DNA of 64,000 bases from an uncultured Planctomycetota bacterium (lineage in GTDB: Bacteria > Planctomycetota > Phycisphaerae > SM23-33): positions 1,347 to 65,346 of the forward strand of contig CAITIS010000067.1 of assembly GCA_903892515.1 (NCBI GenBank), given 5' to 3'. Both the position numbers and the translations under genes were made by a program. Shown here one piece after another: positions 22,703 through 56,825 of the stretch (positions within the stretch are counted from its first letter, which is position 1; each line of letters opens with the position of its first letter). The notes under the pieces are model-generated. The model did not search any database. It had not been told where the DNA came from and worked only from the letters and a program-made list of their open reading frames with translations.

Positions 22703-23761
22703 ATGGCGGCCGACCCGATACAGCATCGTCTCGATGAATCCCAGGCCCTGGGCCTGTTCTCCCTGGACCTGCACGAATTGGGCCGCCGGGCCGATGCGTT
22801 CCGCCGCCGTCTGCACGGCAACAGGGCCTACTACGTCGTCAATCGGCACATCCACTACACCAATCTTTGCGCCCTGAAGTGCAAGATTTGCACCTTTGGC
22901 CATGCCCCTGGCCAAGCGGGCGTCTACGAGCGAAGCGTCGAGCAGATTGCGCAGGACGCGTCGGCAGCGGCCGATGGCGGCGCCAGCCAGATCCACCTGA
23001 CGGGCGGCCTGCACCCATCCTGGCGCATCGAACGCTACGAGCAGATGCTCCGGGCAATTCGACAGGCAGCACCCGGGCTGCACATCAAGGCCTTCACAGC
23101 CTGCGAGATTCAGCACATTGCTGCCCTGAGCACATTGACAATCGAGGCCGTGCTGGAGCGTCTGATCGAAGCCGGGCTGGGCTCGCTGCCCGGCGGTGGC
23201 GCGGAAATCCTGGATGATTCCATTCGACGCGAACTCTTCCCCGGCAAGATCTCATCCCAAGAGTGGCTGGACGTCCACCGCATGGCCCATCTCCGGGGCC
23301 TGCCGACCAACGCGACCATGCTGTATGGCCACGGCGAACGTTCCGAGCACCGCATCCGTCATCTGATGCTCCTGCGACAACTCCAGGACGAGACGGGCGG
23401 ATTCGAGGCCTTTGTACCGCTGGCGTTCATTTCACCACCTGATGGCAGGTTCCCACCTGGCCCCTGGGGGGTAGATGATCTGCGCGTGATCGCGGCCTCG
23501 CGGCTGGTGCTGGACAACTTTCCCCACATCAAGGCCTTCTGGGCGATGCAATCACTGGCGGTTTCCAGCGTCGCGTTGCATTTCGGGGCCGACGACATCC
23601 ACGCGGCGATAGCGTCCTACGATATCGTCGCCCGCCCCGGCCAGCCCAGCCAAGCCCTGTCCCAGCCGCAACTTGTAGCGGCCATTCGGGCCGCCGGCTT
23701 CGAGCCTTGCCGATGCGATGGCACCTATAGTACGCCGCGCGCCGCCACCGCCCACAAGTAG
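22703..23761 (+). CDS. Radical SAM enzyme of the futalosine menaquinone pathway (MqnE/MqnC family)
   Basis: YYVVNRHIHYTNLCALKCKICTF (CxxxCxxC). Overall MqnC/MqnE architecture. Confidence 0.75.
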   Translation: MAADPIQHRLDESQALGLFSLDLHELGRRADAFRRRLHGNRAYYVVNRHIHYTNLCALKCKICTFGHAPGQAGVYERSVEQIAQDASAAADGGASQIHLTGGLHPSWRIERYEQMLRAIRQAAPGLHIKAFTACEIQHIAALSTLTIEAVLERLIEAGLGSLPGGGAEILDDSIRRELFPGKISSQEWLDVHRMAHLRGLPTNATMLYGHGERSEHRIRHLMLLRQLQDETGGFEAFVPLAFISPPDGRFPPGPWGVDDLRVIAASRLVLDNFPHIKAFWAMQSLAVSSVALHFGADDIHAAIASYDIVARPGQPSQALSQPQLVAAIRAAGFEPCRCDGTYSTPRAATAHK

Positions 23762-25842: not shown

Positions 25843-27492
25843 TCAGCCAAGTATAGCCTTCAGGTCCGCCTGGGCTGTGGTAATGGGCATAATGTTGTAG
25901 TTCTTGACCAGCACGTCCAGCACGGCCGGGGTCACAAAGGCCGGCAGGCTGGGTCCCAGCCGGATGTTGCGAACGCCCAGGTGCAGCAGCGTCAGCAGAA
26001 TGCACACGGCCTTCTGCTCATACCAGGAGAGCACCATCGACAGCGGCAGGTGGTTCACGTCGGTGCCGAAGGCATTGGCCAACGCCAGAGCGATGCGAAT
26101 GGCCGAGTAGGCGTCGTTGCACTGGCCGATGTCCAGCAGCCGCGGGATGCCGCCGATCGTGCCGAAATCGAGCTTGTTGAAGCGGTACTTGCCGCACGCC
26201 AGCGTCAGGATCACGCAGTCGTTGGGCACCTGCTCCGCCAGCTCGGTGTAGTAGTTCCGGCCTGGCTTGGCGCCGTCGCAGCCGCCGATCAGGAAGAAGT
26301 GCCGAATCGCCCCGCTCTTGACGGCATCGATCACCTTGTCCGCCACGCCCAGCACCGCGTCATGACCAAACCCGGTCAGGATGCTCTTCTCGGGCTCATC
26401 CTTCTCAAAGCCCGGCGCCGCCAGAGCGGCTTCGATCACCGGTGCGAAATTGCCGTCGCTGATATGTCGCACCCCCGGCCAGGCCACCACGCCGCTGGTG
26501 AAGAGCCGTCCCTTGTAGTCATCGGATGGCTTCTGAATGCAGTTGGTGGTCATGAGGATCGCGCCGGGCAAGGCCAGGAACTCTTTCTTCTGATCCTGCC
26601 ACGCCCCGCCATAGTTGCCCACCAGGTGCTTGTACTTCTTTAAGCCCGGATACCCATGCGCCGGCAACATCTCGCCGTGCGTGTAGACGTTGATGCCCTT
26701 GCCTTCGGTCTGCTTGAGCAGTTCTTCCAGGTCCTTCAGGTCGTGGCCCGAGACCACGATGGCCTTGCCCTTGACGGGAGTTACGCGGACGCTCGAGGGC
26801 GCCGGCTGGCCGTACGCACCCGTGTTGGCCTCATCCAGCAGTTCCATCACGCGCAGGTTCACCTCGCCGACCTTCAGCACCGCCGGCAGGAGTTCCTCGA
26901 CCGTCAGGCTTGGACGGGTGAGGAAATCCAGCGCCTCGTGGAAGTAGGCGTACACCTTGTCGTCGTGCTTGCCGAGGATCTGAGCGTGGTCCGCATACGC
27001 GGCCGTGCCCTTCAGGCCATAGAGCACCAGCTCCCGCAGGCCTGTAACCGTATCGCCCTCGCGGGACATTCGATCTTGAATGCCCACGGCTTGCCCCTGC
27101 GCGACCAGCCCGGCCAGGTCCGCCGCCGGCAGCCATGCAGCCGGTCCGTCCAGATCCGCCGCAGCCTTGCCCTGCTTGAGCATCGCCCCGCGATACAGTG
27201 CCTTGGCCCGCTCCTTTACGTCGGCGGCTTGACGCAAGGTCTTTTCCAACCTGGCGACGTCGAAGCTCACGTTCGTGACGGTCGTGAACAGCGCCTCGAT
27301 CACGAAGACATCGACCTGGCGGTCGCGCGCCCCGAGCCCGCCGGCCCGATGCGCGTACATCGCGATGCCCTTGACGGCCTCGACGATGAGGTCCTGCAGC
27401 GCCGCGACCTGCGCGTCTTTCCCGCATACGCCCATGGCCGTGCAGCCCGTGCCCTTGGCGGCCTGTTCACACTGGTAACAGAACATGCTCAT
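25843..27492 (-). CDS. hcp: Hybrid-cluster protein / hydroxylamine reductase
   Basis: N-terminal [23 protein letters not shown]. Full-length Hcp family similarity (549 aa). Confidence 0.92.
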
Positions 27493-39932: not shown

Positions 39933-41354
39933 ATGACCATCACAGGGAATGTCTGCGCGCCCAGCGAGCTATCGAGCACGCTGCTGGAACTCGTGCAGAA
40001 AAAGATAGGTGTCCAGAAGTTTGAAGCCTGGTTCAAGCACGGCGCGAGCGTGAAGTTGGAAGAAAATTGCGTAAAGATCGGCGCACCGAATCCATTCGTG
40101 GCCGGATGGATTGAAAGCCACTTCGCCGACGTCATTATCGACGCGGCGCAGGAGATCGCAGGCCAGCGCCCACGCCTCGTCATCAACGTGGACCCCGTGC
40201 TCTCAGGCAGCCTGCGCAAACGCCAACTCGACGCCCAGGCCAGGCTGGTCAGCCGCTCAACCAGCGGCCAGGCTCGTCATTCCGGCCCGGCCCCGACCCG
40301 CCAGCGGCTGCGGTACACGCTTAAGGATTTCATTGTCGGGCCGTGCAACCAGTTGGCCTTCACCGCCGCCGAAACGGTCGCCAAGACCGGCAAGGGCCCG
40401 TTTAACCCGCTGTTTATTCACGGCACGTGCGGCGTGGGCAAGACACACCTGCTTCAGGGCATCTGCAACGGCGTGGCGTCGCTGACGCAGGAAGGCAAGG
40501 ACCTGAACTGGAAGTACACCACGGCCGAGCAGTTCACCAACGAGTTTGTCAACGCCATCCGCACGAAGAAGCTCGAGACCTTCCGCCGCTCGTATCGCGA
40601 CCTGGATGTTCTGGTGATCGACGACGTGCACTTCCTCTCGGGCAAGAAGGCCACGCAGGAGGAATTCCTGCACACCTTCAACAGCATCGACGCCGCCGGC
40701 AGGCAGGTCATCATGGCCTCGGATGCCCATCCGCGTATGGTCGGCCAGTTGGCTGAGCAGCTGGTCAGCCGGTTCCTGTCGGGCATGGTTGTAAAGATCG
40801 AAACCCCCGACCGCGCCACGCGCCTGACGATCCTGCAGAAATTCGCCGCCCGGCTGAATCTGAATTGCCCGCTGGAGGTGCTGGAATACGTGGCCGACCA
40901 GATTCGCGGCTCGGTCCGCGAGCTGGAGGGCGCGCTGGTCAAGCTTTCGGCCTTGATGCAACTGACGCACCGCCAGGGCAGTCTCGACCTGGCGCGAGAA
41001 GCGCTGGCCGAGCACCTGTCCCACACGGGCAGTGCGACCAGCCTGGGCGAGATCGAGGCCGTAGTGTCGTCATTCTTCGGCATCACTCCGGCGGACATCC
41101 ACTCGACGCGGCGGACGCACACAATCAGCTTGGCCAGGTCGCTGGCCATGTACCTGGCCCGTCGGCGGACGCACATGAGCTATCCCGAGATCGGGCGGTT
41201 CATGGGCAAGAATCACTCCTCGGCGGTACTGGCCGTGCAGAAGCTGGAGCGGCTGGCCAAAGACAACAAGCCTTGCCGCTGGATGTCGGCAGCGGGGCCC
41301 AAAGAAATGCCGATTCGCAGTATGCTGGAATTGCTGACCGAACAGGTTGGCTAA
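39933..41354 (+). CDS. dnaA: Chromosomal replication initiator protein DnaA
   Basis: AAA+ Walker A GTCGVGKTHLLQ. Box VII. C-terminal DNA-binding HTH (SYPEIGRFMGKNHSSAVLAVQK). Confidence 0.9.
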   Translation: MTITGNVCAPSELSSTLLELVQKKIGVQKFEAWFKHGASVKLEENCVKIGAPNPFVAGWIESHFADVIIDAAQEIAGQRPRLVINVDPVLSGSLRKRQLDAQARLVSRSTSGQARHSGPAPTRQRLRYTLKDFIVGPCNQLAFTAAETVAKTGKGPFNPLFIHGTCGVGKTHLLQGICNGVASLTQEGKDLNWKYTTAEQFTNEFVNAIRTKKLETFRRSYRDLDVLVIDDVHFLSGKKATQEEFLHTFNSIDAAGRQVIMASDAHPRMVGQLAEQLVSRFLSGMVVKIETPDRATRLTILQKFAARLNLNCPLEVLEYVADQIRGSVRELEGALVKLSALMQLTHRQGSLDLAREALAEHLSHTGSATSLGEIEAVVSSFFGITPADIHSTRRTHTISLARSLAMYLARRRTHMSYPEIGRFMGKNHSSAVLAVQKLERLAKDNKPCRWMSAAGPKEMPIRSMLELLTEQVG

Positions 41355-49717: not shown

Positions 49718-49766
49718 GTGGAACAGGCCTTCAGCCTGTTCGGCACAGCCTAAAAGGCTGTGCCAC
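49718..49766 (+). repeat. Twin-hairpin REP-like element (family 2), copy 1
   Basis: gtggaacaggc-cttca-gcctgttc + ggcacagcc-taaaa-ggctgtgcc + acc. Confidence 0.7.
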
Positions 49767-49795
49767 CGCCAAAGACTTATGTAGGGCCGCTTAGA

Positions 49796-50296
49796 CTAAA
49801 ACCTGTTGTACCGCACCACGTCCTTGAATTGCGGCTTCTCGGGACGCTTGGCGGCGACGGCCGGCTTGCCCACAGGCGTCAGCGCGATGACGCGCAGGGC
49901 TTCGGGCACGCCCAGCACGCCCTTGACGTAGCTTTCCTGCCGGCGGATCGCCCCTTCGATCCAGCAGCCGGCGTAGCCCAGGGCCACGATGGCCAGCAGC
50001 ATGTTCTCCATGGCTGCGGCCGCGTCCTGCTGCCAGAACTCGCCATGCGGCGTAGGCTTGGGATCGACCACCAGCACGACGGCCGCCGTGGCGCCGGTCA
50101 TCGCCTTGCTGACCGAGTCGAGCTTGGCCATGACGGCGGGATCGTCGACGATGATGTACTGTTTGAACTGGGCGTTGCAGCCCGTCGGGGCTTCGATGCC
50201 GGCCTGGACGATCCTATCCAGCACCGCGCGCGGCACCGGCTCGCTGGTGTATTGCCTGACGCTGCGACGACTGTTGATGACGTCAAAGAATTCCAT
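49796..50296 (-). CDS. Nitroreductase-family protein
   Basis: MEFFDVINSRRSVRQYTSEPV... (nitroreductase N-terminal signature). Confidence 0.8.
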   Translation of the reverse strand: MEFFDVINSRRSVRQYTSEPVPRAVLDRIVQAGIEAPTGCNAQFKQYIIVDDPAVMAKLDSVSKAMTGATAAVVLVVDPKPTPHGEFWQQDAAAAMENMLLAIVALGYAGCWIEGAIRRQESYVKGVLGVPEALRVIALTPVGKPAVAAKRPEKPQFKDVVRYNRF

Positions 50297-50357
50297 GTAA
50301 ACTCCCTTTCAAATCGGCCTGCTGGCGCAGCTTTCGAGCCGGCGTGAATGATATCCT

Positions 50358-50391
50358 CGCGTGGCCGCTGGACGCCGCGGCCACGGCACCC
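50358..50391 (+). repeat. Hairpin repeat (family 3), copy 1: cgcgtggccgc-tggacgc-cgcggccacggcaccc
   Basis: Identical 34-mer at 60247-60280. Confidence 0.7.
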
Positions 50392-50407
50392 GCGCTACAC
50401 GTTTGCC

Positions 50408-51088
50408 TCACACTGGAATCGCCGCGCCGGTGACCGCGTTGGCGGCGTCGGAAGCCAGAAACGCGATTACTTCGGCGATGTCCCGCGGCCTGGTCCACTT
50501 GGAAAAGTCGGCCTTGGGCATCGCCTGGCGATTGGCCGGCGTGTCGATCGTGCCGGGAAGAACGGCGTTGACGGTGATCATCTGCTCGGCCAATTCCTTG
50601 GCCAACGCGCCCGTCAAGGCCACCACAGCCGCCTTGGACGCGGCATAGCAGCTCATGCCCGACGCCGGCGCTGTCGCCCGCTGACTGGCGACGTTGATGA
50701 TCCGCCCGCCGCCCTGGCCTGTCATGAGCCTGGCCCCCTGCCGACAGCACAGCCAGCAGGTCCGCAGGTTCATCGAGAGCATCTTCTCCAGGTCGGCCAA
50801 GCTGCTTTGGGCGATGGGCCCAGACAGGAACCCGCCGGCCACATTGGCCACGATATCCAGCCGGCCATGGCGGTCGCGGACCTCCGCAAACACCCGTTCA
50901 ACCGCCGACTCGTCGGAGAGGTCCGCCTGGTGAAAGAAAACATTCACCCCGACGGCGTCCGGTTGGCCGTAATGGTAAATGCCGTGGACGATGGCCCCAT
51001 CGGCGACGAAGCGTTCGATGACGGCCCGGCCCAGGCTGCCGCCGGCGCCCGTGACGAACGATATCTTGTTTTCCAAGCTCGGACGCAT
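50408..51088 (-). CDS. SDR-family short-chain dehydrogenase/reductase
   Basis: ISFVTGAGGSLG (TGxxxGxG). YAASK catalytic motif. ATG at 51086-51088. Confidence 0.85.
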   Translation of the reverse strand: MRPSLENKISFVTGAGGSLGRAVIERFVADGAIVHGIYHYGQPDAVGVNVFFHQADLSDESAVERVFAEVRDRHGRLDIVANVAGGFLSGPIAQSSLADLEKMLSMNLRTCWLCCRQGARLMTGQGGGRIINVASQRATAPASGMSCYAASKAAVVALTGALAKELAEQMITVNAVLPGTIDTPANRQAMPKADFSKWTRPRDIAEVIAFLASDAANAVTGAAIPV

Positions 51089-51302
51089 AAGATAGTTGCT
51101 CCGTTGCGCCGGTGACTGTGCTTGCCCAGGCAAAGCCAGCATCGGCGGTGCGGCCAGGCCGCATTCAAGGTTGCGTGAGCTTGCGGCCTGAACGATTATC
51201 GGCTCGACCGGGTTGCGTAGGTCAGTAAACGTCTGGCCGCCCGCGAGTTGAGAAGACGAAAAGCTTTCAATCGCCGTCGGCGTTATCGTAAGATTTTAGG
51301 CA

Positions 51303-54300
51303 ATGAAGGTGGACTCAAGATTCCTCACCAGCCAGGGGCCGGAGATCTTTACCGGCAACGAACTGTTGGTCAAAGGCGCCCTGGAGGCCCAGGGCGGCAT
51401 GCATCTGCTGGGCGGCTACCCGGGCTCGCCCGTGGCGGGCTTCTTTGATGCGCTCTCCCAGATCAAAGACCTGCTTACCGAAAAGGGCATCCGCGCCGTC
51501 ATAAACAATAACGAGGCACTCTCCGGGGCCATGCTCAATGGCAGCCAGCTTCTGGGCTGCCGGGCAATGATCGTCATGAAGTCCGTGGGCGTGCACGTGG
51601 CCGCCGATGCGCTGGCGTTGGGCAACCTGGCCGGGGCGCATCCCGACGGCGGGGCCATCCTCGTCTGCGGCGACGATCCCTGGAGCGACTCCACCCAGGT
51701 GCCCGCCGACAGCCGGTACATCTGCAAGCACCTGCACATGCCCGTCATCGAGCCGGCCACGGCGCAGGACGTAAAGGACTACGTCGATCTGTCGCTGCGG
51801 GTTTCGCGAGAGGCCGAGTTGTACGCGGGCTATCTCATCACCACCAACCTCGCCGATGGCGGCGGCACCGTGCAATGCCGGCCTAACCAGTTTCCAACTT
51901 TCAGCACCCGCCAGCAGTTGGCGATGAAGACCGACGAGATCAACCTGAACAAATACGTCCTGCTGCCGCCGCGAACATGGTGGCAGGAGGCATCGCTGCC
52001 GGCGCGGTTTGCTCGCGCCATGGCCACCGCCCGGCGCACCGGCATGAACCAGCTGCTCTTTGGCGGCGGCGGGAAGAAGAAGCCGCTGGGCTTTGTCGCC
52101 AGCGGGCTGGCTTTTAGCTATCTTCAGCAAGCACTGGGCGAGATGGACCTGCTGGGCGAATTCCCCATCGTCAAGTTCGGCCTGAGCTATCCCATCGACC
52201 CGCAGATGGTGCGCGAGTTGGCGCAGCAGTGCGACCGCATCATCGTCGTGGAAGAGCGCCGCGGCTTCATGGAAGAGCAGATCGGCCAGGTCATTCTGCG
52301 CGACCGCCAGGAAGGCGCCGACACGGGCAATGTCGAGCTTTGGGGCAAGAAGTTTCCGGGCAACCTGCCGGGCTTCCCGGAACGGCTGGGCCTGCATCCC
52401 TCGCTCGTCATCGAGACGCTGGGCAGGTTGATGGATCATCTGGCCAAGCGCGGCCAGTTAGGCAGCTCCGGCGAAGCCTCCTCCAAGCGCGAGGTCGAGA
52501 GCATCCAGGCCACCGGTCGCGCCGAGTTCGGCGCCACCCCGCCACGGCTGCCCAGTTTCTGCCCCGGCTGCCCGCACCGCGACAGCGCCAGCCTGTGCCT
52601 GGAAATCAAGAAATCCTTCGCCGACGAACTCTACATGCGGCGGATGCACAAGCGTGGGGCCGTGGACCTGGTCTTCCACGGCGACACCGGCTGCTACACG
52701 ATGCTGATGTTCCCGCCCAACACGCCGCTGATGCACAATTATTCCGGCATGGGGCTGGGCGCCGGCACCGGCTCGGGCATCGACCCGTTCGTCACCAACA
52801 AGCAAGTCGTCTTCATGGGCGACTCGACCTTCTTCCACTCCGGCCAGATCGGGATTTCGCAGGCCATCAAGCTGGGCCAGGACATCACCTTCATCATCCT
52901 GGACAACCGCACCACGGCCATGACGGGCCACCAGCCCACCCCGGGCGTCGACTACGACATTCTGGGCAACTCCACGGCCGCTCAGAGCATCGACGACATC
53001 GTCCGCGGCATGAGCATCGATGGCACCTTGCCAGTGGTGCGCGTCTCGCCGGAACGACGAACCGAGTACCGCCGGCTGCTGGAGCAGACGTTTCTCTCCG
53101 ACGGCGTGAAGATCATCATCGCCGACAAGGAGTGCGGCATCACGCGCACACGGCGGCGGCGCAGGGCCGAGCGGCAGGTCATCCGCAACACGGGATTCCT
53201 TCCCGCCTGGGAGCACATGAATGTCAACCAGGACATCTGTAACTTCTGCCTGGACTGTTCGCGGCTGACCGGCTGCCCTGGCCTTAAGCACGTCCAGACC
53301 GACTACGGCCTGAAGACCGACACCGACCTGACCTGGTGCGTCAACGACGGCGCGTGCGAACGCATCGGCAGTTGCTCGGCCTTCGAGCACGTGACGATCA
53401 AGCGCAAGGCCGCCCCGCGATCCAGGGTTCCCGAACTGAACCTCGACGCGATTCCCGAACCGGCCCTGCCGCCCATGCCCGAAAGCGGGCTGTGGCGCTG
53501 CTGCCTGGTGGGCGTGGGCGGCATGGGCATCGGCCTGGCCACACAGGTGCTGGTCCGCGCCGGCCACAAGCAAGGCCTGGAGGTCACCTTCTACGACAAG
53601 AAGGGCCTGGCCATTCGCAACGGCGGCACTATCAGCCACGTGACTTACGCCTCTGGCTCGACCAAGCCCGTGACAGCGGTGATTCCCTTCGGCAAGGCTG
53701 ACCTGCTGCTGGGCATGGACGTGCTGGAGGCCGCCAGGGCTGTCGATCCCGAATCGCGCAGCCGGATCGCTTCGCCCGAGCGAACCGCCGCGGTCATCAA
53801 CACCGATAAAATTTCGACCATCAGCGGGCTCATCAATGGCCGGGACTTTGACGTCGAAGGGCTCGACCAGGTTATTCGGCGGCACACCCGGCCCAACGAG
53901 ACGTTCACGCGCAACATTGGCCGGCTGTGCGAAAAGTATCTCGGCAACAAGCTGTACACGAACATCATGCTGCTGGGGCTGGCCTTCCAGAAAGGCCTGA
54001 TCCCCGTTTCGCTGCACTCGATGGCCTGGGCCATCAAGGACACCATCAAGGCCGACTTCCGCAAGAACATGTATGCGTTCAACATTGGGCGCAAGCTCAT
54101 GGTCGAGCCGGCGCTCTTCCAAGGCCCGCCCAAGCGCACCGGCTGGCGCGAGACCCTGGAAGACAAGTGCCGCCACACGATCCGCCGCTACGGACGCGGG
54201 CAGGTCATGGCCGAGTCGCTGCGACAGATGGCGGCCGAAGTGGTCGGCAGGATGGACACGCTGGATGAGTCCGTCAAACGCGACGTGATCGTTCGCCTGT

Positions 54301-56048
54301 ACGACTGCATGCGCTGGGGCGGCCTGGAGTACGCCCGGCGCTACGCCGACGCCATCGCGTCCGTCCACGAGCAGGAAACCCGCGGCATCGTCACCTGCGG
54401 CTTAGAGCAGTACGGCGCCAAGCTGCCGGCCACGCGGGCCGTCATCGACAACTTGGCCAAAGCGATGCTCATCAAGGACATCGTTTTCATCGCCGAGCTG
54501 GCCACCAGCCCCGAAAAGTACGCCCGCGACCGCGAGAAGTACAACGTCAACCCGCCCTCGGGCGACCGCATCGTGTATCGCCACCTGCTGCACCCCGACA
54601 TTCACCTGTTCGGCAAGACCTTCCGTCCCAGCTTGATCGCCCCGCACTGGGTGATGCAACTGGCCAAGCGGATGACGTTCCTGCGCAAGGGCAGGAACTG
54701 GCGGCGGCGCGAGCGCGAGTTCCTGGCCCTGTACGAGCAGCGGATCGCCAACTTCCACTTCGGCAGCGTCGAGCAGTATCACCAGGCCGTCGCCCGCCTG
54801 TCCGAGCCGCAGTGCATGCAGTGCCTGACGCCGCACTGCCAGGACCAAGGCTGCCCACTGCACAGCGAGATCGACGGCTGGATGGAACTGGCTCGCCAGG
54901 GCAAGTGGAAAGAGGCCTCCGACCTGCTGCACAAGTACAACAACTTCCCCGAGTTCACGGCCTACATCTGCCCGGCGGCGTGCGAGTCGGCGTGCCGGCA
55001 GGCATTGAGCGGGTATCCCGTGCGCATTCAGAAGGTCGAGCGAGAGATCATCGAGCGGGCTTGGCAGGACGGCTTCGTGCAGCCTCAGCGGCCGACGGAA
55101 AAGACCGGCAAGAAGGTCGCTGTCATCGGCTCAGGCCCAGCCGGCTTGGCGGCAGCGCAACAACTGGTTCGGCGCGGACACCAGGTCGTCGTGTATGAAA
55201 AGGACTCTCAGCCTGGCGGGCTGTTGCGCTACGGCGTGCCGGAATTCCGCCTGCCCAAGAAGATGCTCGACCGCCGCTTGGAACAGATGATTTCCGAAGG
55301 CGTCAATTTCGAGGTCGGGCTGGCCATCGGCAAGGACACGCCGCTGGGCGAACTGCGGAAGCAGTACGATGCGGTGTTGCTGGCCGGCGGAGCGGCCAGG
55401 CCGAGGGATCTGCGCGTCGCGGGCCGGGAGAATAGCTCAGCCGTGCAGTACGCCATGGACTTCCTGCGGCAGGCCAACCTGGCCGTCGCGGGCAAGACCG
55501 ATGCCAAGACCACCTCGGCCGCCGGCAGGACCGTCGCGGTCATCGGCGGCGGCGAGACCGGCAACGACTGCGTGGAGATGGCCCTGTCGCAAGGGGCCAA
55601 GAAGGTCTACCAGCTCGAGATCATGCCCGCGTCCAATGGCCAGGCGGCCAGCGACCTGGAGGGCAGGATCGAGCGGCGTTGGTGCGTGGCCACCACGCAG
55701 ATCCATTCCAACGGCCAGGGCGTCCGGCTGTCGGGCGTGCAGGTTCGTTGGCTGTTCACGGCGGCTGGGCGGCAACACGTCCAAACGCCCGGCACGGAGT
55801 TTGAACTCAGCGCCGACCTGGTGCTGCTGGCCCTGGGCTTCGACGCCCCCGCCGATCCGGCCATGGTGGAACAACTGGGCCTAAAGACCGACGAGGCCGG
55901 GCGGCTCGTCGTCAACGAATTCTCGACCAGCGCTGCCGGCGTGTTCGTGGCCGGCGATCTGGCCTCAGGCGCCAGCTTAGTGGCAAAGGCCATCGACTCA
56001 GGCCGAAGAGCGGCCGAGCACGTCGATCAGTTTCTGCGGCGGGCGTAG
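51303..56048 (+). CDS. Fusion protein: indolepyruvate/2-oxoacid:ferredoxin oxidoreductase (IorA+IorB-like, TPP and 4Fe-4S) fused to a GltD-like NAD(P)H-dependent FAD/Fe-S oxidoreductase domain
   Basis: Residues 1-~1160: GYPGSPV..., TPP motif GDTGCYTM...GDSTFFHSG, ferredoxin CNFCLDC...CPG / CVNDGACERIGSC, IorB-like GVGGMGIG. Residues ~1165-1581: CMQCLTPHCQDQGCP...NNFPEFTAYICPAACESAC...KKVAVIGSGPAGLAAAQQL...LLRYGVPEFRLPK...AVIGGGETGNDCV (GltD/NfnB/SudA family). Confidence 0.85.
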   Translation: MKVDSRFLTSQGPEIFTGNELLVKGALEAQGGMHLLGGYPGSPVAGFFDALSQIKDLLTEKGIRAVINNNEALSGAMLNGSQLLGCRAMIVMKSVGVHVAADALALGNLAGAHPDGGAILVCGDDPWSDSTQVPADSRYICKHLHMPVIEPATAQDVKDYVDLSLRVSREAELYAGYLITTNLADGGGTVQCRPNQFPTFSTRQQLAMKTDEINLNKYVLLPPRTWWQEASLPARFARAMATARRTGMNQLLFGGGGKKKPLGFVASGLAFSYLQQALGEMDLLGEFPIVKFGLSYPIDPQMVRELAQQCDRIIVVEERRGFMEEQIGQVILRDRQEGADTGNVELWGKKFPGNLPGFPERLGLHPSLVIETLGRLMDHLAKRGQLGSSGEASSKREVESIQATGRAEFGATPPRLPSFCPGCPHRDSASLCLEIKKSFADELYMRRMHKRGAVDLVFHGDTGCYTMLMFPPNTPLMHNYSGMGLGAGTGSGIDPFVTNKQVVFMGDSTFFHSGQIGISQAIKLGQDITFIILDNRTTAMTGHQPTPGVDYDILGNSTAAQSIDDIVRGMSIDGTLPVVRVSPERRTEYRRLLEQTFLSDGVKIIIADKECGITRTRRRRRAERQVIRNTGFLPAWEHMNVNQDICNFCLDCSRLTGCPGLKHVQTDYGLKTDTDLTWCVNDGACERIGSCSAFEHVTIKRKAAPRSRVPELNLDAIPEPALPPMPESGLWRCCLVGVGGMGIGLATQVLVRAGHKQGLEVTFYDKKGLAIRNGGTISHVTYASGSTKPVTAVIPFGKADLLLGMDVLEAARAVDPESRSRIASPERTAAVINTDKISTISGLINGRDFDVEGLDQVIRRHTRPNETFTRNIGRLCEKYLGNKLYTNIMLLGLAFQKGLIPVSLHSMAWAIKDTIKADFRKNMYAFNIGRKLMVEPALFQGPPKRTGWRETLEDKCRHTIRRYGRGQVMAESLRQMAAEVVGRMDTLDESVKRDVIVRLYDCMRWGGLEYARRYADAIASVHEQETRGIVTCGLEQYGAKLPATRAVIDNLAKAMLIKDIVFIAELATSPEKYARDREKYNVNPPSGDRIVYRHLLHPDIHLFGKTFRPSLIAPHWVMQLAKRMTFLRKGRNWRRREREFLALYEQRIANFHFGSVEQYHQAVARLSEPQCMQCLTPHCQDQGCPLHSEIDGWMELARQGKWKEASDLLHKYNNFPEFTAYICPAACESACRQALSGYPVRIQKVEREIIERAWQDGFVQPQRPTEKTGKKVAVIGSGPAGLAAAQQLVRRGHQVVVYEKDSQPGGLLRYGVPEFRLPKKMLDRRLEQMISEGVNFEVGLAIGKDTPLGELRKQYDAVLLAGGAARPRDLRVAGRENSSAVQYAMDFLRQANLAVAGKTDAKTTSAAGRTVAVIGGGETGNDCVEMALSQGAKKVYQLEIMPASNGQAASDLEGRIERRWCVATTQIHSNGQGVRLSGVQVRWLFTAAGRQHVQTPGTEFELSADLVLLALGFDAPADPAMVEQLGLKTDEAGRLVVNEFSTSAAGVFVAGDLASGASLVAKAIDSGRRAAEHVDQFLRRA

Positions 56049-56171
56049 CGGACGCCACGGGTGCGGCGCATGCGCCGTGCCGCAGCGGGCACACGCCACA
56101 GTCTGGCATCGCGTGCAACAAGAGCGGCCTCACTTCTTCCCAAAGCCTGTTCGCACTCCTATCCTGTTGAT

Positions 56172-56825
56172 ATGCCCACAGAACCTCAGCCGCAGCGAAA
56201 GACGCGCACAGCCAGGATTATCGCCCTGCTGAAGAAGCGGTTCCCTGACGCCAAGATCGCCCTGAACTTCTCCAACCCATTGGAATTGCTGGTGGCGACG
56301 ATCCTGTCGGCGCAGTGCACCGACGTGCGGGTCAACGTGGTCACGCCGGCGCTGTTCAAGAAGTACCGCTGGGCCCGGGACTTCGCCCGCGCCGATTTGG
56401 AGACGCTGCAAGAGGAAGTCCGCAGCACGGGCTTCTTTCGCAACAAGGCCAAGAGCATCAAGTCGGCTGCGACGCGGATCGTCGAGGCATACGACGGCCA
56501 GGTGCCCGAGACGATGGAAGAGCTGCTGACGCTCTCGGGCGTCGCCCGCAAGACGGCCAATGTGGTACTGGGCAACGCCTTCGGCAAGAACGAGGGCGTG
56601 GTGGTGGATACGCACGTCCGTCGCCTGTCGCAGCGGCTTGGTCTGACGAAGCACGACGACCCCGAGAAGATCGAGCAGGATCTCATGCAACTCGTGCCGC
56701 GCAGGCAATGGGCCGACTTCGCCCACCTGATGATCTTTCATGGCCGGAACATCTGCTTCGCCCGCAAGCCAAACTGCGCCGAATGCCCGCTGAACAAGCT
56801 CTGCCCCTCGGCCTTCAAGGTTTGA
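56172..56825 (+). CDS. nth: Endonuclease III
   Basis: HhH-GPD (LTLSGVARKTANVVLG). FCL CxxxxxxCxxC...C cluster (CFARKPNCAECPLNKLC). ATG at 56172 inside the longer listed ORF. Confidence 0.9.
   Translation: MPTEPQPQRKTRTARIIALLKKRFPDAKIALNFSNPLELLVATILSAQCTDVRVNVVTPALFKKYRWARDFARADLETLQEEVRSTGFFRNKAKSIKSAATRIVEAYDGQVPETMEELLTLSGVARKTANVVLGNAFGKNEGVVVDTHVRRLSQRLGLTKHDDPEKIEQDLMQLVPRRQWADFAHLMIFHGRNICFARKPNCAECPLNKLCPSAFKV

What the first reader, a model, noticed from the sequence alone, without database searches (positions are those of the whole stretch)
51303..56048. Single 1581-aa polypeptide fusing an indolepyruvate/2-oxoacid:ferredoxin oxidoreductase to a GltD-type NAD(P)H flavoprotein
The N-terminal ~1160 aa has all the hallmarks of the fused IorA/IorB 2-oxoacid:ferredoxin oxidoreductase family: TPP-binding GDTGCY...GDSTFFHSG, two ferredoxin-type Cys clusters, and an IorB-like GVGGMGIG domain. 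The C-terminal ~420 aa is an unmistakable GltD/NfnB/SudA-like module (CMQCLTPHC...CPAACESAC, two dinucleotide folds GSGPAGLAAA and VIGGGETGNDCV). In characterised systems these two activities are separate proteins linked through free ferredoxin. A covalent fusion implies a self-contained 2-oxoacid (aryl-pyruvate or branched-chain oxoacid) to NAD(P)+ oxidoreductase. That is analogous to eukaryotic pyruvate:NADP+ oxidoreductase but built from a different reductase module.
Basis: partly seen in the sequence, partly recalled or inferred. Interest (0 to 1): 0.7.

Follow-up and report, generated by a model that had tools for sequence, protein, structure and literature searches.

The report
Oxoacid oxidoreductase fused to NAD(P)H flavoprotein
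One 1581-residue planctomycete protein joins a thiamine-dependent 2-oxoacid oxidoreductase to a glutamate-synthase-type NAD(P)H flavoprotein, so it probably passes electrons from oxoacid oxidation straight to NAD(P)+ without free ferredoxin; the fusion is real, conserved in one bacterial lineage and apparently unstudied.

Summary
Window 51303-56048 (+) is one uninterrupted 1581-aa ORF. Its domain order is IorA-like Pyr and TPP domains, a ferredoxin-like domain, an IorB-like domain III, DUF6537, then a GltD module (Fer4_20 + Pyr_redox_2). It is not an assembly artefact: at least 120 protein clusters and 27 species-level genomes carry the same full-length ORF at 56-63% identity. All named sources are Planctomycetota or Phycisphaerae. 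Every predicted cofactor ligand is 96-100% conserved, and the junction has no linker or length variation. An exhaustive search of 50%-identity representatives found only one full-length fusion cluster, which points to a single origin. The nearest relatives are unfused DUF6537-type IORs (45-51%, for example Poriferisphaera) and free glutamate-synthase small subunits (41-46%). The best reading is a ferredoxin-independent, CoA-acylating 2-oxoacid:NAD(P)+ oxidoreductase. The substrate and the NAD/NADP preference are unresolved; NAD kinase lies directly upstream in 14 loci. The idea is not unprecedented. Eukaryotic PNO, AorABC and phenylglyoxylate:NAD+ oxidoreductase use the same logic. I also found a second, independent and much more diverse IorA-GltD-ferredoxin fusion family in other phyla. 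No paper describing either fusion was found. Verdict: a new variant of a known kind, of moderate interest.

The parts
51303..56048 (+). Complete CDS of the 1581-aa IOR-GltD fusion protein (stop codon included)
   Evidence: Single ORF. The N-terminus MKVDSRFLT matches the family consensus MKVDPRFLT. Full-length homologues are found in at least 120 clusters and 27 genomes.
51345..52529 (+). OFOR domains I-II (IorA-like N-terminal half, aa 15-409)
   Evidence: NCBIfam IOR_alpha covers aa 15-693, E 2.4e-85. The AF2 model matches the OorA, OGOR alpha and OOR alpha folds (TMt 0.45-0.68) and PFOR (E about 2e-15).
52530..53207 (+). TPP-binding (PP) domain, aa 410-635. It holds the proximal [4Fe-4S] ligands C420, C423, C464 and C611 and the TPP/Mg motif GDS506-508...DN534-535.
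   Evidence: Pfam TPP_enzyme_C 461-605. The Cys residues and the motif are 98-100% conserved in 120 homologues and in nearly all of 21 unfused relatives. C611 aligns with Cys1071 of D. africanus PFOR.
53208..53417 (+). Ferredoxin-like domain, aa 636-705: C646-x2-C649-x2-C652-x5-C658-P ... C679-x2-D682-x2-C685-x5-C691
   Evidence: All 7 Cys are 99-100% conserved. The same pattern, with an invariant Asp682, occurs in unfused DUF6537-IOR relatives. Two clusters are predicted, one of them Asp-ligated or [3Fe-4S] (inference).
53499..54092 (+). IorB-like domain III (CoA-binding 'POR' domain), aa 733-930, with GVGGMGIG at 737-744
   Evidence: Pfam PF01558 POR 739-930. NCBIfam IOR beta subunit models match 734-933. 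The motif is conserved.
54291..54803 (+). DUF6537 helical domain, aa 997-1167, truncated at its C-terminal end by the fusion
   Evidence: Pfam PF20169 matches profile positions 7-178 of 203. The region is all-helical in the AF2 models. Unfused relatives continue past ...LSxPx with ...VxGYREV..., where the fusion switches to CMxC.
54798..54815 (+). Fusion junction (aa 1166-1171, L-S-x-P-x-C)
   Evidence: No gaps or length variation occur across aa 1120-1172 in 120 homologues. The breakpoint is defined against 21 unfused relatives.
54774..55070 (+). GltD N-terminal Fe-S domain, aa 1158-1256. It holds C1171, C1174, C1179, C1184, C1223, C1227 and C1231 plus E1246, enough for two [4Fe-4S] clusters.
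   Evidence: Pfam Fer4_20. The Cys are 100% and E1246 is 99% conserved. In GltS the non-Cys cluster ligand is Glu and in DPD it is Gln (PMC8097209). The assignment of E1246 to that position comes from my reading of the alignments.
55110..56003 (+). GltD FAD/NAD(P)H domain, aa 1270-1567, with FAD GSGPAG at 1276-1281 and NAD(P)H GGGxTG at 1415-1420
   Evidence: Pfam Pyr_redox_2. The best PDB sequence match is B. subtilis GOGAT small chain 7mfm_I, E 4e-90. The AF2 model superposes on GOGAT beta with TMt 0.74-0.81 and rmsd 2.6-3.1 A. The motifs are conserved.
56061..56825 (+). Endonuclease III-like gene (HhH-GPD), 12 nt downstream on the same strand. It is a conserved neighbour and is probably co-transcribed. 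A functional link is not shown.
   Evidence: Pfam HhH-GPD. A homologue lies downstream on the same strand in 18 of 29 fusion loci, immediately adjacent in most and 1-2 kb away in four. No terminator-like site was found between the genes.

Best explanation
The gene encodes a ferredoxin-independent, CoA-acylating 2-oxoacid:NAD(P)+ oxidoreductase. The proposed steps are as follows. A 2-oxoacid is decarboxylated on TPP in the IorA-like PP domain. The two electrons leave one at a time through the proximal [4Fe-4S] cluster (C420/C423/C464/C611) and the two clusters of the ferredoxin-like domain. In an ordinary OFOR they would reduce free ferredoxin at that point. [quoted passage not shown] The FAD then delivers a hydride to NAD(P)+. 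The acyl group is released as acyl-CoA at the IorB-like domain III. What is shown: the domain identities, the full conservation of every ligand set, the rigid junction, a single origin, and restriction to Planctomycetota/Phycisphaerae, mostly from anoxic habitats. What is inferred: the direction of electron flow, which follows from the redox potentials (acyl-CoA+CO2/2-oxoacid near -500 mV against NAD(P)+ at -320 mV, textbook values); the continuity of the cluster chain, which may run across the OFOR dimer as in DPD; and the substrate. The family name suggests aryl- or branched-chain 2-oxoacids, but no DUF6537-type IOR is known to me to have been characterised, and pyruvate is not excluded. NADP+ is weakly favoured as the acceptor.
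For: The N-terminal part has an OFOR fold (PFOR E about 2e-15; OorA TMt 0.68). The C-terminal part has a GOGAT-beta fold (TMt 0.74-0.81) and a sequence match to 7mfm_I at E 4e-90. All cofactor ligands are 96-100% conserved in 120 homologues. The OFOR ligand pattern is shared with unfused relatives. The junction has fixed length and no linker. The same ORF is intact in 27 genomes. Pairwise identities of the two halves correlate (r = 0.58). The GltD modules of the fusion form one clade in an NJ tree. Only one full-length 50%-identity representative exists among 1.84 billion. Residues invariant in the fusion but different in unfused relatives are densest in domain III, the Fd-like domain and DUF6537 (18 of 21), which is where GltD attaches. 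NAD kinase lies directly upstream on the same strand in 14 of 29 loci, a hint at NADP(H). There are precedents for the design. GltD-like modules link NAD(P)H to Fe-S chains in GltS, DPD, Nfn and AegA (PMC8097209). AorABC wires a tungsten aldehyde oxidoreductase through Fe-S clusters to an FAD subunit proposed as the NAD+-reducing site (PMC6365974). PNO is an alternative form of pyruvate:ferredoxin oxidoreductase that uses NADP+ (PMC6856725).
Against: There are no biochemical data. The N-terminal part scores below the NCBIfam cut-offs (428 against 816 for PRK13030; 287 against 651 for IOR_alpha), so its substrate cannot be transferred from characterised IORs. The ferredoxin-like domain is kept intact, so ferredoxin reduction is not excluded. 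No aminotransferase, acyl-CoA synthetase or other pathway gene is a conserved neighbour. The GltD module lacks about 21 residues after the NAD(P)H Rossmann beta2 strand relative to B. subtilis GltB, which leaves the nucleotide preference open. Sending -500 mV electrons to NAD(P)+ wastes energy, which an anaerobe might be expected to avoid.
Confidence: 0.6

Rival explanations
1. Dual-acceptor or redox-valve enzyme. The protein is still mainly a ferredoxin-reducing OFOR. The attached GltD module acts as a built-in ferredoxin:NAD(P)+ reductase or overflow path, or it poises or re-reduces the clusters with NAD(P)H. NAD(P)+ reduction would then be a side or regulatory route rather than the sole outlet.
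For: The ferredoxin-like domain is fully conserved and identical in pattern to that of unfused relatives, which presumably use an external acceptor. In AorABC, benzyl viologen is thought to take electrons directly from one of the Fe-S clusters of the chain while NAD+ is reduced at the FAD.
Against: A permanent, linker-less fusion conserved across the family argues for an obligatory path. No ferredoxin gene is a conserved neighbour.
Confidence: 0.17
2. Flavin-based bifurcating or confurcating enzyme. The GltD FAD is the flavin that bifurcates in NfnB. It would split NAD(P)H electrons between the low-potential OFOR branch, driving reductive carboxylation of an acyl-CoA to a 2-oxoacid, and an unidentified high-potential partner.
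For: The GltD-like FAD with two low-potential clusters is the bifurcating unit of NfnAB (PMC8097209). The module's fold matches NfnB, Xfn, NfnABC and StnC. OFORs are reversible (established knowledge).
Against: No NfnA/PyrK-like or other candidate high-potential partner is a conserved neighbour. The module groups with canonical GltD, not with NfnB. GltS itself does not bifurcate.
Confidence: 0.07
3. Glutamate-synthase connection. The GltD module still docks to a GltB large subunit, so the protein would act as, or replace, the small subunit. 2-Oxoacid oxidation and/or NAD(P)H would then feed glutamate synthesis.
For: The module is nearly a bona fide GOGAT small subunit: TIGR01317 scores 440.6 bits against a cut-off of 447.7. 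Its best PDB match is the B. subtilis GOGAT small chain. It nests among canonical GltDs and eukaryote-type fused GOGATs in the NJ tree.
Against: No gltB is present in the 64-kb window; no other ORF exceeds 839 aa. None was seen among conserved neighbours in 29 loci. The Fe-S face of GltD that contacts GltB is the face that must contact the OFOR here (inference). There is a deletion of about 21 aa relative to GOGAT small subunits.
Confidence: 0.05
4. Artefact: two adjacent genes joined by a sequencing or assembly error.
For: None was found. L040, a MAG contig, shows the gene broken into several frames, which is the opposite kind of error.
Against: 27 independent genomes and at least 120 protein clusters from NCBI, ENA, JGI and Logan have the same uninterrupted ORF. 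In unfused relatives no gltD lies next to the IOR gene, so there is nothing to merge.
Confidence: 0.01

Closest known systems
Single-polypeptide 'indolepyruvate ferredoxin oxidoreductase family protein' with DUF6537 (NCBIfam PRK13030/PRK13029), for example Poriferisphaera sp. WC338 WP_432797481.1 (P0128)
   Same: Residues 1-1170 align end to end at 45-51% identity. The domain order is the same, as are the proximal-cluster Cys residues and the CxxCxxCx5CP...CxxDxxCx5CP ferredoxin-like pattern. Both score similarly below the cut-off on PRK13030 (428 and 454 bits).
   Different: The unfused proteins end about 40-100 aa after the LSxPx motif and have no GltD module. No gltD is nearby. Cys432 and about 20 other positions are invariant only in the fusion. 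To my knowledge no member of this unfused family has been characterised biochemically.
Glutamate synthase small (beta) subunit GltD (TIGR01317; PDB 7mfm_I, 6s6s, 2vdc)
   Same: It has the same seven Cys plus Glu for two [4Fe-4S] clusters, the same FAD and NAD(P)H dinucleotide folds and 35-46% identity. The fold superposes with TMt 0.74-0.81. The fusion module nests among canonical GltDs in the NJ tree.
   Different: The module is not a free subunit. No GltB partner is in the neighbourhood. About 21 aa are deleted after beta2 of the NAD(P)H domain. It scores 7 bits below the curated cut-off. Electrons are predicted to flow towards NAD(P)+, opposite to GltS.
Second IOR-GltD fusion family found here: IorA(POR_N-TPP_C)-GltD-Fer4 of about 1100-1200 aa, plus a separate IorB (for example P0269, L060)
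   Same: It is the same idea: an IOR catalytic unit covalently joined to a Fer4_20 + Pyr_redox_2 NAD(P)H flavoprotein.
   Different: The origin and topology are independent. Here GltD is inserted between the TPP domain and the terminal ferredoxin domain of a canonical IorA (TIGR03336 750 bits, above cut-off). IorB is usually a separate gene. The GltD part is only 27-36% identical to ours and forms a separate clade. The family is far more diverse and occurs in Thermodesulfobacteriota, Myxococcota, Dehalococcoidia and others. I found no characterisation of it either.
Pyruvate:NADP+ oxidoreductase (PNO) of Euglena gracilis and Cryptosporidium parvum
   Same: PNO is an OFOR-type enzyme that reduces NADP+ instead of ferredoxin (PMC6856725, which cites Rotte et al. 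2001). That it achieves this by fusion of PFOR to a reductase module is from my own knowledge.
   Different: PNO uses a PFOR-type OFOR and a cytochrome-P450-reductase-type FMN/FAD module (my knowledge). Here the OFOR is a DUF6537-type IOR and the reductase is a GltD-type Fe-S flavoprotein. No flavodoxin or FAD_binding_1 domains were detected.
Phenylglyoxylate:NAD+ oxidoreductase (CoA-benzoylating), PadEFGHI of Azoarcus evansii (Hirsch, Schagger and Fuchs 1998)
   Same: It is a CoA-acylating 2-oxoacid enzyme that reduces NAD+. The title and the five-subunit composition were verified through citing papers. That it is OFOR-type and carries an extra FAD subunit is from my memory.
   Different: It is a five-subunit complex, not a fusion. 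Whether its FAD subunit is GltD-like rests on my memory only and could not be checked, because the paper is not held.
AorABC tungsten aldehyde oxidoreductase of Aromatoleum aromaticum
   Same: It follows the same design principle: a catalytic module of a normally ferredoxin-dependent family, a chain of [4Fe-4S] clusters and an FAD subunit that is the proposed NAD+-reducing site. The enzyme uses NAD+ as an electron acceptor (PMC6365974).
   Different: The catalytic chemistry is unrelated (W-pterin). The subunits are separate.
Dihydropyrimidine dehydrogenase and NfnB/SudA
   Same: The GltD-like module feeds or receives electrons through further ferredoxin-like clusters. In DPD this happens within one polypeptide and across the dimer (PMC8097209). 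The folds match.
   Different: The partner modules differ (DHODH-like FMN domain; NfnA). The sequence matches are weaker than to GltD.

Membership tests
2-oxoacid:ferredoxin oxidoreductase (OFOR) superfamily | TPP/Mg-binding motif GD(G/S)-x(~25)-(N/D)N in a PP domain | tested here: met
   G506-D507-S508 ... D534-N535. G506, D507 and N535 are 100% conserved, D534 98% and S508 81% in 120 homologues. Pfam TPP_enzyme_C E 4e-13.
2-oxoacid:ferredoxin oxidoreductase (OFOR) superfamily | Four Cys for the proximal [4Fe-4S] cluster next to TPP | tested here: met
   C420, C423, C464 and C611 are 100% conserved and shared with unfused relatives. C611 aligns with PFOR Cys1071. Cluster binding itself was not tested.
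2-oxoacid:ferredoxin oxidoreductase (OFOR) superfamily | OFOR fold (Pyr domain, domain II, PP domain, domain III) | tested here: met
   The AF2 model of aa 1-1170 has pLDDT 80.8 and pTM 0.76. The top Foldseek PDB hits are PFORs (E about 2e-15, prob 1.0), OorA (TMt 0.68), OGOR alpha and OOR alpha. Global TM to PFOR is low (0.32) because the domain order differs.
2-oxoacid:ferredoxin oxidoreductase (OFOR) superfamily | CoA-dependent oxidative decarboxylation of a 2-oxoacid | not testable with these tools
   This needs an enzyme assay.
Indolepyruvate:ferredoxin oxidoreductase (IorAB; TIGR03336 / PRK13030) | Score above the curated NCBIfam cut-off | tested here: not met
   IOR_alpha scores 287 against 650.9, PRK13030 428 against 816 and PRK13029 322 against 952. 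The protein is therefore a divergent relative, and substrate specificity cannot be transferred.
Indolepyruvate:ferredoxin oxidoreductase (IorAB; TIGR03336 / PRK13030) | IorA-type order (Pyr, PP, ferredoxin-like domain) followed by IorB-type domain III | tested here: met
   Domain order.
GltD-like NAD(P)H Fe-S flavoprotein module | N-terminal domain with ligands for two [4Fe-4S] clusters (7 Cys plus Glu/Gln) | tested here: met
   C1171/1174/1179/1184/1223/1227/1231 are 100% and E1246 is 99% conserved. The Glu/Gln ligand is described in PMC8097209.
GltD-like NAD(P)H Fe-S flavoprotein module | Adrenodoxin-reductase-like FAD and NAD(P)H dinucleotide folds | tested here: met
   GSGPAG 1276-1281 and GGGxTG 1415-1420 are conserved. 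The fold superposes with TMt 0.74-0.81 on GOGAT beta.
Glutamate synthase small subunit proper (TIGR01317) | Score above the curated cut-off | tested here: not met
   440.6 bits against a cut-off of 447.7, in two stretches because of a deletion of about 21 aa.
Glutamate synthase small subunit proper (TIGR01317) | Partnership with a GltB large subunit (adjacent gene or fusion) | tested here: not met
   No ORF above 839 aa other than this one is in the window. No Glu_synthase gene is among the conserved neighbours of 29 loci. Genome-wide presence of gltB was not testable.
Pyruvate:NADP+ oxidoreductase (PNO) | PFOR fused to an NADPH-cytochrome P450 reductase-type module (flavodoxin + FAD_binding_1 + NAD_binding_1) | tested here: not met
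   None of these Pfam domains was detected. PNO is analogous in logic only.
NfnAB-type bifurcating transhydrogenase | NfnA/PyrK-like [2Fe-2S]-FAD partner for the high-potential branch | tested here: inconclusive
   It is absent from the window neighbours and from the conserved neighbours of 29 loci. Whole genomes could not be examined.

The most novel reading that the evidence does not exclude
The GltD-type flavin, which is the bifurcating site in NfnB, makes this a flavin-based electron-bifurcating or confurcating OFOR. NAD(P)H oxidation, coupled to a still unidentified high-potential acceptor, would drive reductive carboxylation of acyl-CoA to 2-oxoacids without any reduced ferredoxin. That would be a new way for anaerobes to build amino-acid skeletons or fix CO2.
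Probability: 0.07. Interest if true: 0.85.

Novelty: new variant of a known kind. Interest (0 to 1): 0.5.

Why it matters
OFORs are normally modelled as ferredoxin-dependent. If this protein delivers oxoacid electrons directly to NAD(P)+, redox and energy budgets inferred for anaerobic Phycisphaerae from MAGs would be wrong at a central node. Those genomes currently annotate it only as 'FAD-dependent oxidoreductase', 'indolepyruvate ferredoxin oxidoreductase' or 'glutamate synthase small subunit'. The same would apply to many Thermodesulfobacteriota, Myxococcota and Dehalococcoidia through the second fusion family. The protein would be a bacterial counterpart of eukaryotic PNO built from different parts. 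It would also be a natural single-chain model for electron transfer from TPP through five Fe-S clusters to a flavin. A self-sufficient, ferredoxin-free 2-oxoacid/acyl-CoA biocatalyst could be useful in practice. Finally, it offers the first functional handle on the large, uncharacterised DUF6537-type IOR family.

Tried and rejected
(1) Frameshift or missed stop at the junction: rejected.

(2) Locating the window's own contig through its exact protein P0001: nothing on record. The source organism is therefore known only as a Planctomycetota relative; the best genome match is 63% identical.

(3) Literature: ten full-text searches were run. They combined IOR, OFOR, GltD, NfnB, fusion, Planctomycetes, Phycisphaerae, DUF6537, IorA/IorB and phenylglyoxylate/Pad. 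None found a description of this or the second fusion. 'DUF6537' and 'Phycisphaerae + indolepyruvate' gave zero papers. The library lacks most subscription journals, so absence is not proof. Hirsch et al. 1998 is not held.

(4) PDB sequence search with the N-terminal 1166 aa: nothing better than E = 0.03, so no solved IOR is available to infer substrate-binding residues.

(5) NADH versus NADPH from the residues after Rossmann beta2 (consensus V-H-Q-L-E-I-L-P): inconclusive. The corresponding region differs between the two NADPH-GOGAT types, and the following approximately 21 residues are deleted here.

(6) Operon logic: no aminotransferase, acyl-CoA synthetase, ferredoxin, NfnA or gltB is a conserved neighbour. 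The promoter and terminator scan was uninformative.

(7) Origin by fusion of adjacent genes: not supported. The two unfused relatives examined have no gltD nearby.

(8) Inter-cluster geometry: it could not be measured, because the structure tool returns no coordinates.


Full report
**The observation**

Window 51303-56048 on the + strand is a single ATG-initiated ORF of 1581 codons with no internal stop. Base composition is uniform across it, at 0.64-0.66 GC, the same as the flanks.

Pfam places these domains, all above gathering thresholds:
- TPP_enzyme_C at 461-605
- POR (OFOR domain III, IorB-like) at 739-930
- DUF6537 at 997-1167
- Fer4_20 at 1158-1256
- Pyr_redox_2 at 1270-1567

NCBIfam gives three main matches:
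- IOR_alpha over 15-693, E 2.4e-85
- the single-polypeptide IOR family PRK13030 over 35-1165, E 6e-128
- the glutamate-synthase small-subunit model TIGR01317 from residue 1146, at 440.6 bits against a cut-off of 447.7

**The fusion is real and inherited**

The 120 best hits in the 5.8-billion-protein collection are all 1523-1632 aa. They are 58-63% identical and cover 97-100% of the query. They come from NCBI, ENA, JGI and Logan assemblies. Where named, they are from Planctomycetota, Phycisphaerae, Phycisphaerales or 'Planctomycetaceae' MAGs.

I scanned one genome per GTDB species with a probe spanning the junction (aa 1001-1581). This found 31 genomes in which the match runs across the junction, all Planctomycetota. 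Hits in Gammaproteobacteria, Acidobacteriaceae and others match only the GltD part. In 27 of these loci my own ORF calling gives one uninterrupted frame covering query residues 1-1578. One MAG copy (L040) is broken into several frames. The alignment of 120 homologues has no gaps and no length variation across residues 1120-1172, so there is no flexible linker.

An exhaustive HMMER search used aa 400-1581 against 1.84 billion 50%-identity representatives. It found exactly one full-length fusion representative (P0057) plus fragments. The next hits were unfused IOR-family proteins of 1186-1276 aa (45-51% identity, with the match ending at protein residue about 1170). After those came free GltDs (41-46%). 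One unfused relative is the 'DUF6537 domain-containing protein' of the cultured phycisphaerad Poriferisphaera sp. WC338. Neither it nor a second unfused relative has a gltD nearby.

Three results point to one fusion event in an ancestor of a planctomycete, mainly phycisphaeral, clade, followed by vertical inheritance:
- Pairwise identities of the N- and C-terminal halves correlate across the family (r = 0.58).
- The fusion's GltD modules form one clade nested among canonical glutamate-synthase small subunits.
- The breakpoint is sharp. Unfused proteins continue ...LSxPx-VxGYREV..., whereas the fusion switches after LSxPx to CMxC, the first Cys motif of GltD.

**Cofactor sites**

- *TPP.* The motif is GDS506-508...DN534-535. 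Its G, D and N positions are 98-100% conserved and S508 is 81%.
- *Proximal [4Fe-4S].* The ligands C420, C423, C464 and C611 are 100% conserved and shared with unfused relatives. C611 aligns with Cys1071 of D. africanus PFOR.
- *Ferredoxin-like domain.* The pattern is C646-x2-C649-x2-C652-x5-C658-P and C679-x2-D682-x2-C685-x5-C691. That is seven Cys and an invariant Asp, in both fused and unfused members. I read this as one all-Cys [4Fe-4S] cluster plus one cluster that is either Asp-ligated [4Fe-4S] or [3Fe-4S]. This is an inference from the motif.
- *GltD module.* C1171, C1174, C1179, C1184, C1223, C1227 and C1231 are 100% conserved and E1246 is 99%. Seven Cys plus a Glu (GltS) or Gln (DPD) is the known ligand set of the two GltD-type [4Fe-4S] clusters (PMC8097209).
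- *Dinucleotide folds.* The FAD motif GSGPAG (1276-1281) and the NAD(P)H motif GGGxTG (1415-1420) are conserved.

**Folds**

An AF2 model of aa 600-1581 has pLDDT 83.8 and pTM 0.74. It superposes on glutamate synthase beta subunits with TMt 0.74-0.81 and rmsd 2.6-3.1 A, followed by NfnB, Xfn, NfnABC, StnC and DPD.

A model of aa 1-1170 has pLDDT 80.8 and pTM 0.76. Its best PDB matches are PFORs (E about 2e-15, probability 1.0) and the alpha subunits of Oor, OGOR and OOR (TMt 0.45-0.68). This matters because by sequence no solved structure matches the N-terminal part better than E = 0.03.

**Most likely mechanism**

Five Fe-S clusters connect a TPP site to an FAD/NAD(P)H site within one chain, or across the expected OFOR dimer as in DPD. 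Oxidative decarboxylation of a 2-oxoacid yields electrons near -500 mV, so transfer to NAD(P)+ at -320 mV is downhill (textbook potentials). I therefore favour a ferredoxin-independent, CoA-acylating 2-oxoacid:NAD(P)+ oxidoreductase, with confidence about 0.6.

Two further results bear on this:
- Positions invariant only in the fusion cluster in domain III, the ferredoxin-like domain and DUF6537 (18 of 21), where the GltD module must pack.
- NAD kinase, confirmed by Pfam, lies directly upstream on the same strand in 14 of 29 loci, often with gaps of about 80-100 nt. It is not upstream in this window. This is a weak hint that NADP+ is the acceptor.

The nucleotide preference could not be read from the sequence. 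About 21 residues after beta2 of the NAD(P)H domain are deleted relative to B. subtilis GltB.

The substrate is open. The N-terminal part falls well below the curated IOR cut-offs, as does the unfused Poriferisphaera relative. No pathway genes are conserved neighbours.

**Rivals**

- *Dual-acceptor or valve enzyme that still reduces ferredoxin (0.17).* The ferredoxin-like domain is untouched.
- *Bifurcating enzyme driving reductive carboxylation (0.07).* The GltD flavin is the bifurcating site in Nfn, but no NfnA-like partner is conserved nearby and the module groups with GltD, not NfnB.
- *Retained role with a GltB large subunit (0.05).* The module is almost a bona fide GltD, but no gltB is in the window or in the conserved neighbourhoods.
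- *Artefact (0.01).* Refuted.

**Comparison with what is known**

The design principle is established: a normally ferredoxin-linked catalytic module wired to a flavoprotein that reduces a pyridine nucleotide. Examples are:
- PNO (PMC6856725)
- AorABC (PMC6365974)
- phenylglyoxylate:NAD+ oxidoreductase, for which I verified the title through a citing paper, while the nature of its FAD subunit is from memory only
- GltD-like modules serving GltS, DPD, Nfn and AegA (PMC8097209)

That review lists no OFOR partner, and ten full-text searches found no paper on an IOR-GltD fusion. The library is incomplete.

While examining other long proteins that matched the GltD part, I found a second family. It has a canonical IorA (TIGR03336 750 bits, above cut-off) with a GltD-like module inserted before its terminal ferredoxin domain. 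It is usually followed by a separate iorB. It comprises at least 120 clusters at 37-60% identity, from Thermodesulfobacteriota, Myxococcota, Bradymonadaceae, Dehalococcoidia and others. Its GltD part is only 27-36% identical to ours and forms a separate deep clade, so IOR-GltD coupling arose at least twice. This makes the present protein less singular. It also makes the general phenomenon, NAD(P)-linked IORs hidden under ordinary annotations, broader.

**Verdict**

I classify it as a new variant of a known kind: an uncharacterised, lineage-restricted domain fusion that implements a known strategy with a new pair of modules. Interest is moderate (0.5). It would interest OFOR and flavoenzyme specialists and would affect metabolic reconstructions of anaerobic Planctomycetota. 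It is neither categorically new nor the key to a long-standing question.

Noticed in passing
L060:6001-9330 (+) with iorB at L060:9337-10017; proteins P0269, P0257, P0278-P0396: This is a second, independent IOR-GltD fusion family: POR_N-TPP_C-Fer4_20-Pyr_redox_2-Fer4 of about 1100-1200 aa, followed by a separate IorB. It has at least 120 clusters at 37-60% identity in Thermodesulfobacteriota, Myxococcota, Bradymonadaceae, Dehalococcoidia and others. It is annotated only as 'indolepyruvate ferredoxin oxidoreductase subunit alpha'. Two members (P0335 at 1356 aa, P0348 at 1384 aa) also carry the IorB domain.
   Followed up: partly
window 56061-56825 (+): An endonuclease III-like gene (HhH-GPD, itself a [4Fe-4S] protein family) lies 12 nt downstream on the same strand. 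A homologue lies downstream on the same strand in 18 of 29 fusion loci, immediately adjacent in most, but not next to unfused relatives. The reason is unknown.
   Followed up: partly
L006:4064-4921, L010:4078-4914, L023:4059-4895 and 11 further loci; absent from the window: NAD kinase lies directly upstream of the fusion gene on the same strand in 14 of 29 loci. In the window that position is taken by two ORFs without any Pfam match (49760-50347 and 50348-51115).
   Followed up: partly
window 52596-52598 (Cys432): Cys432 sits nine residues after the CxxC of the proximal cluster. It is 99% conserved in the fusion family but is Leu/Phe/Val/Ala/Ile in 21 unfused relatives. It is the only fusion-specific invariant residue in the PP domain.
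   Followed up: no
L058:6107-7399 (-) and L059:6323-7618 (-): Both unfused DUF6537-IOR relatives examined have a divergently transcribed beta-ketoacyl synthase immediately upstream. This may hint at a role in supplying acyl-CoA primers for fatty-acid synthesis. It was not seen next to the fusion genes.
   Followed up: no
L040:4996-9822: The fusion gene in this Phycisphaerales MAG (453-kb contig) is split into at least five frames. This is most likely indel error in the assembly rather than a pseudogene.
   Followed up: no
window 11611-14130 (-), 25843-27492 (-), 22703-23761 (+), 39933-41354 (+): The window also encodes an 839-aa multihaem cytochrome c, a hybrid-cluster (prismane) protein, a CofH/MqnC-like radical SAM enzyme (a possible menaquinone-pathway gene) and DnaA. 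This fits a chromosomal region near the origin in an organism with an anaerobic or microaerobic lifestyle.
   Followed up: no
P0237 / P0274 (Holotrichia oblita, a beetle genome assembly): Eukaryote-type fused glutamate synthase fragments (Glu_synthase-GXGXG-GltD) are annotated 'fad nadph dehydrogenase/oxidoreductase' in a 95-Mb beetle scaffold. This is ordinary NADH-GOGAT architecture and is noted only because of the uninformative name.
   Followed up: no
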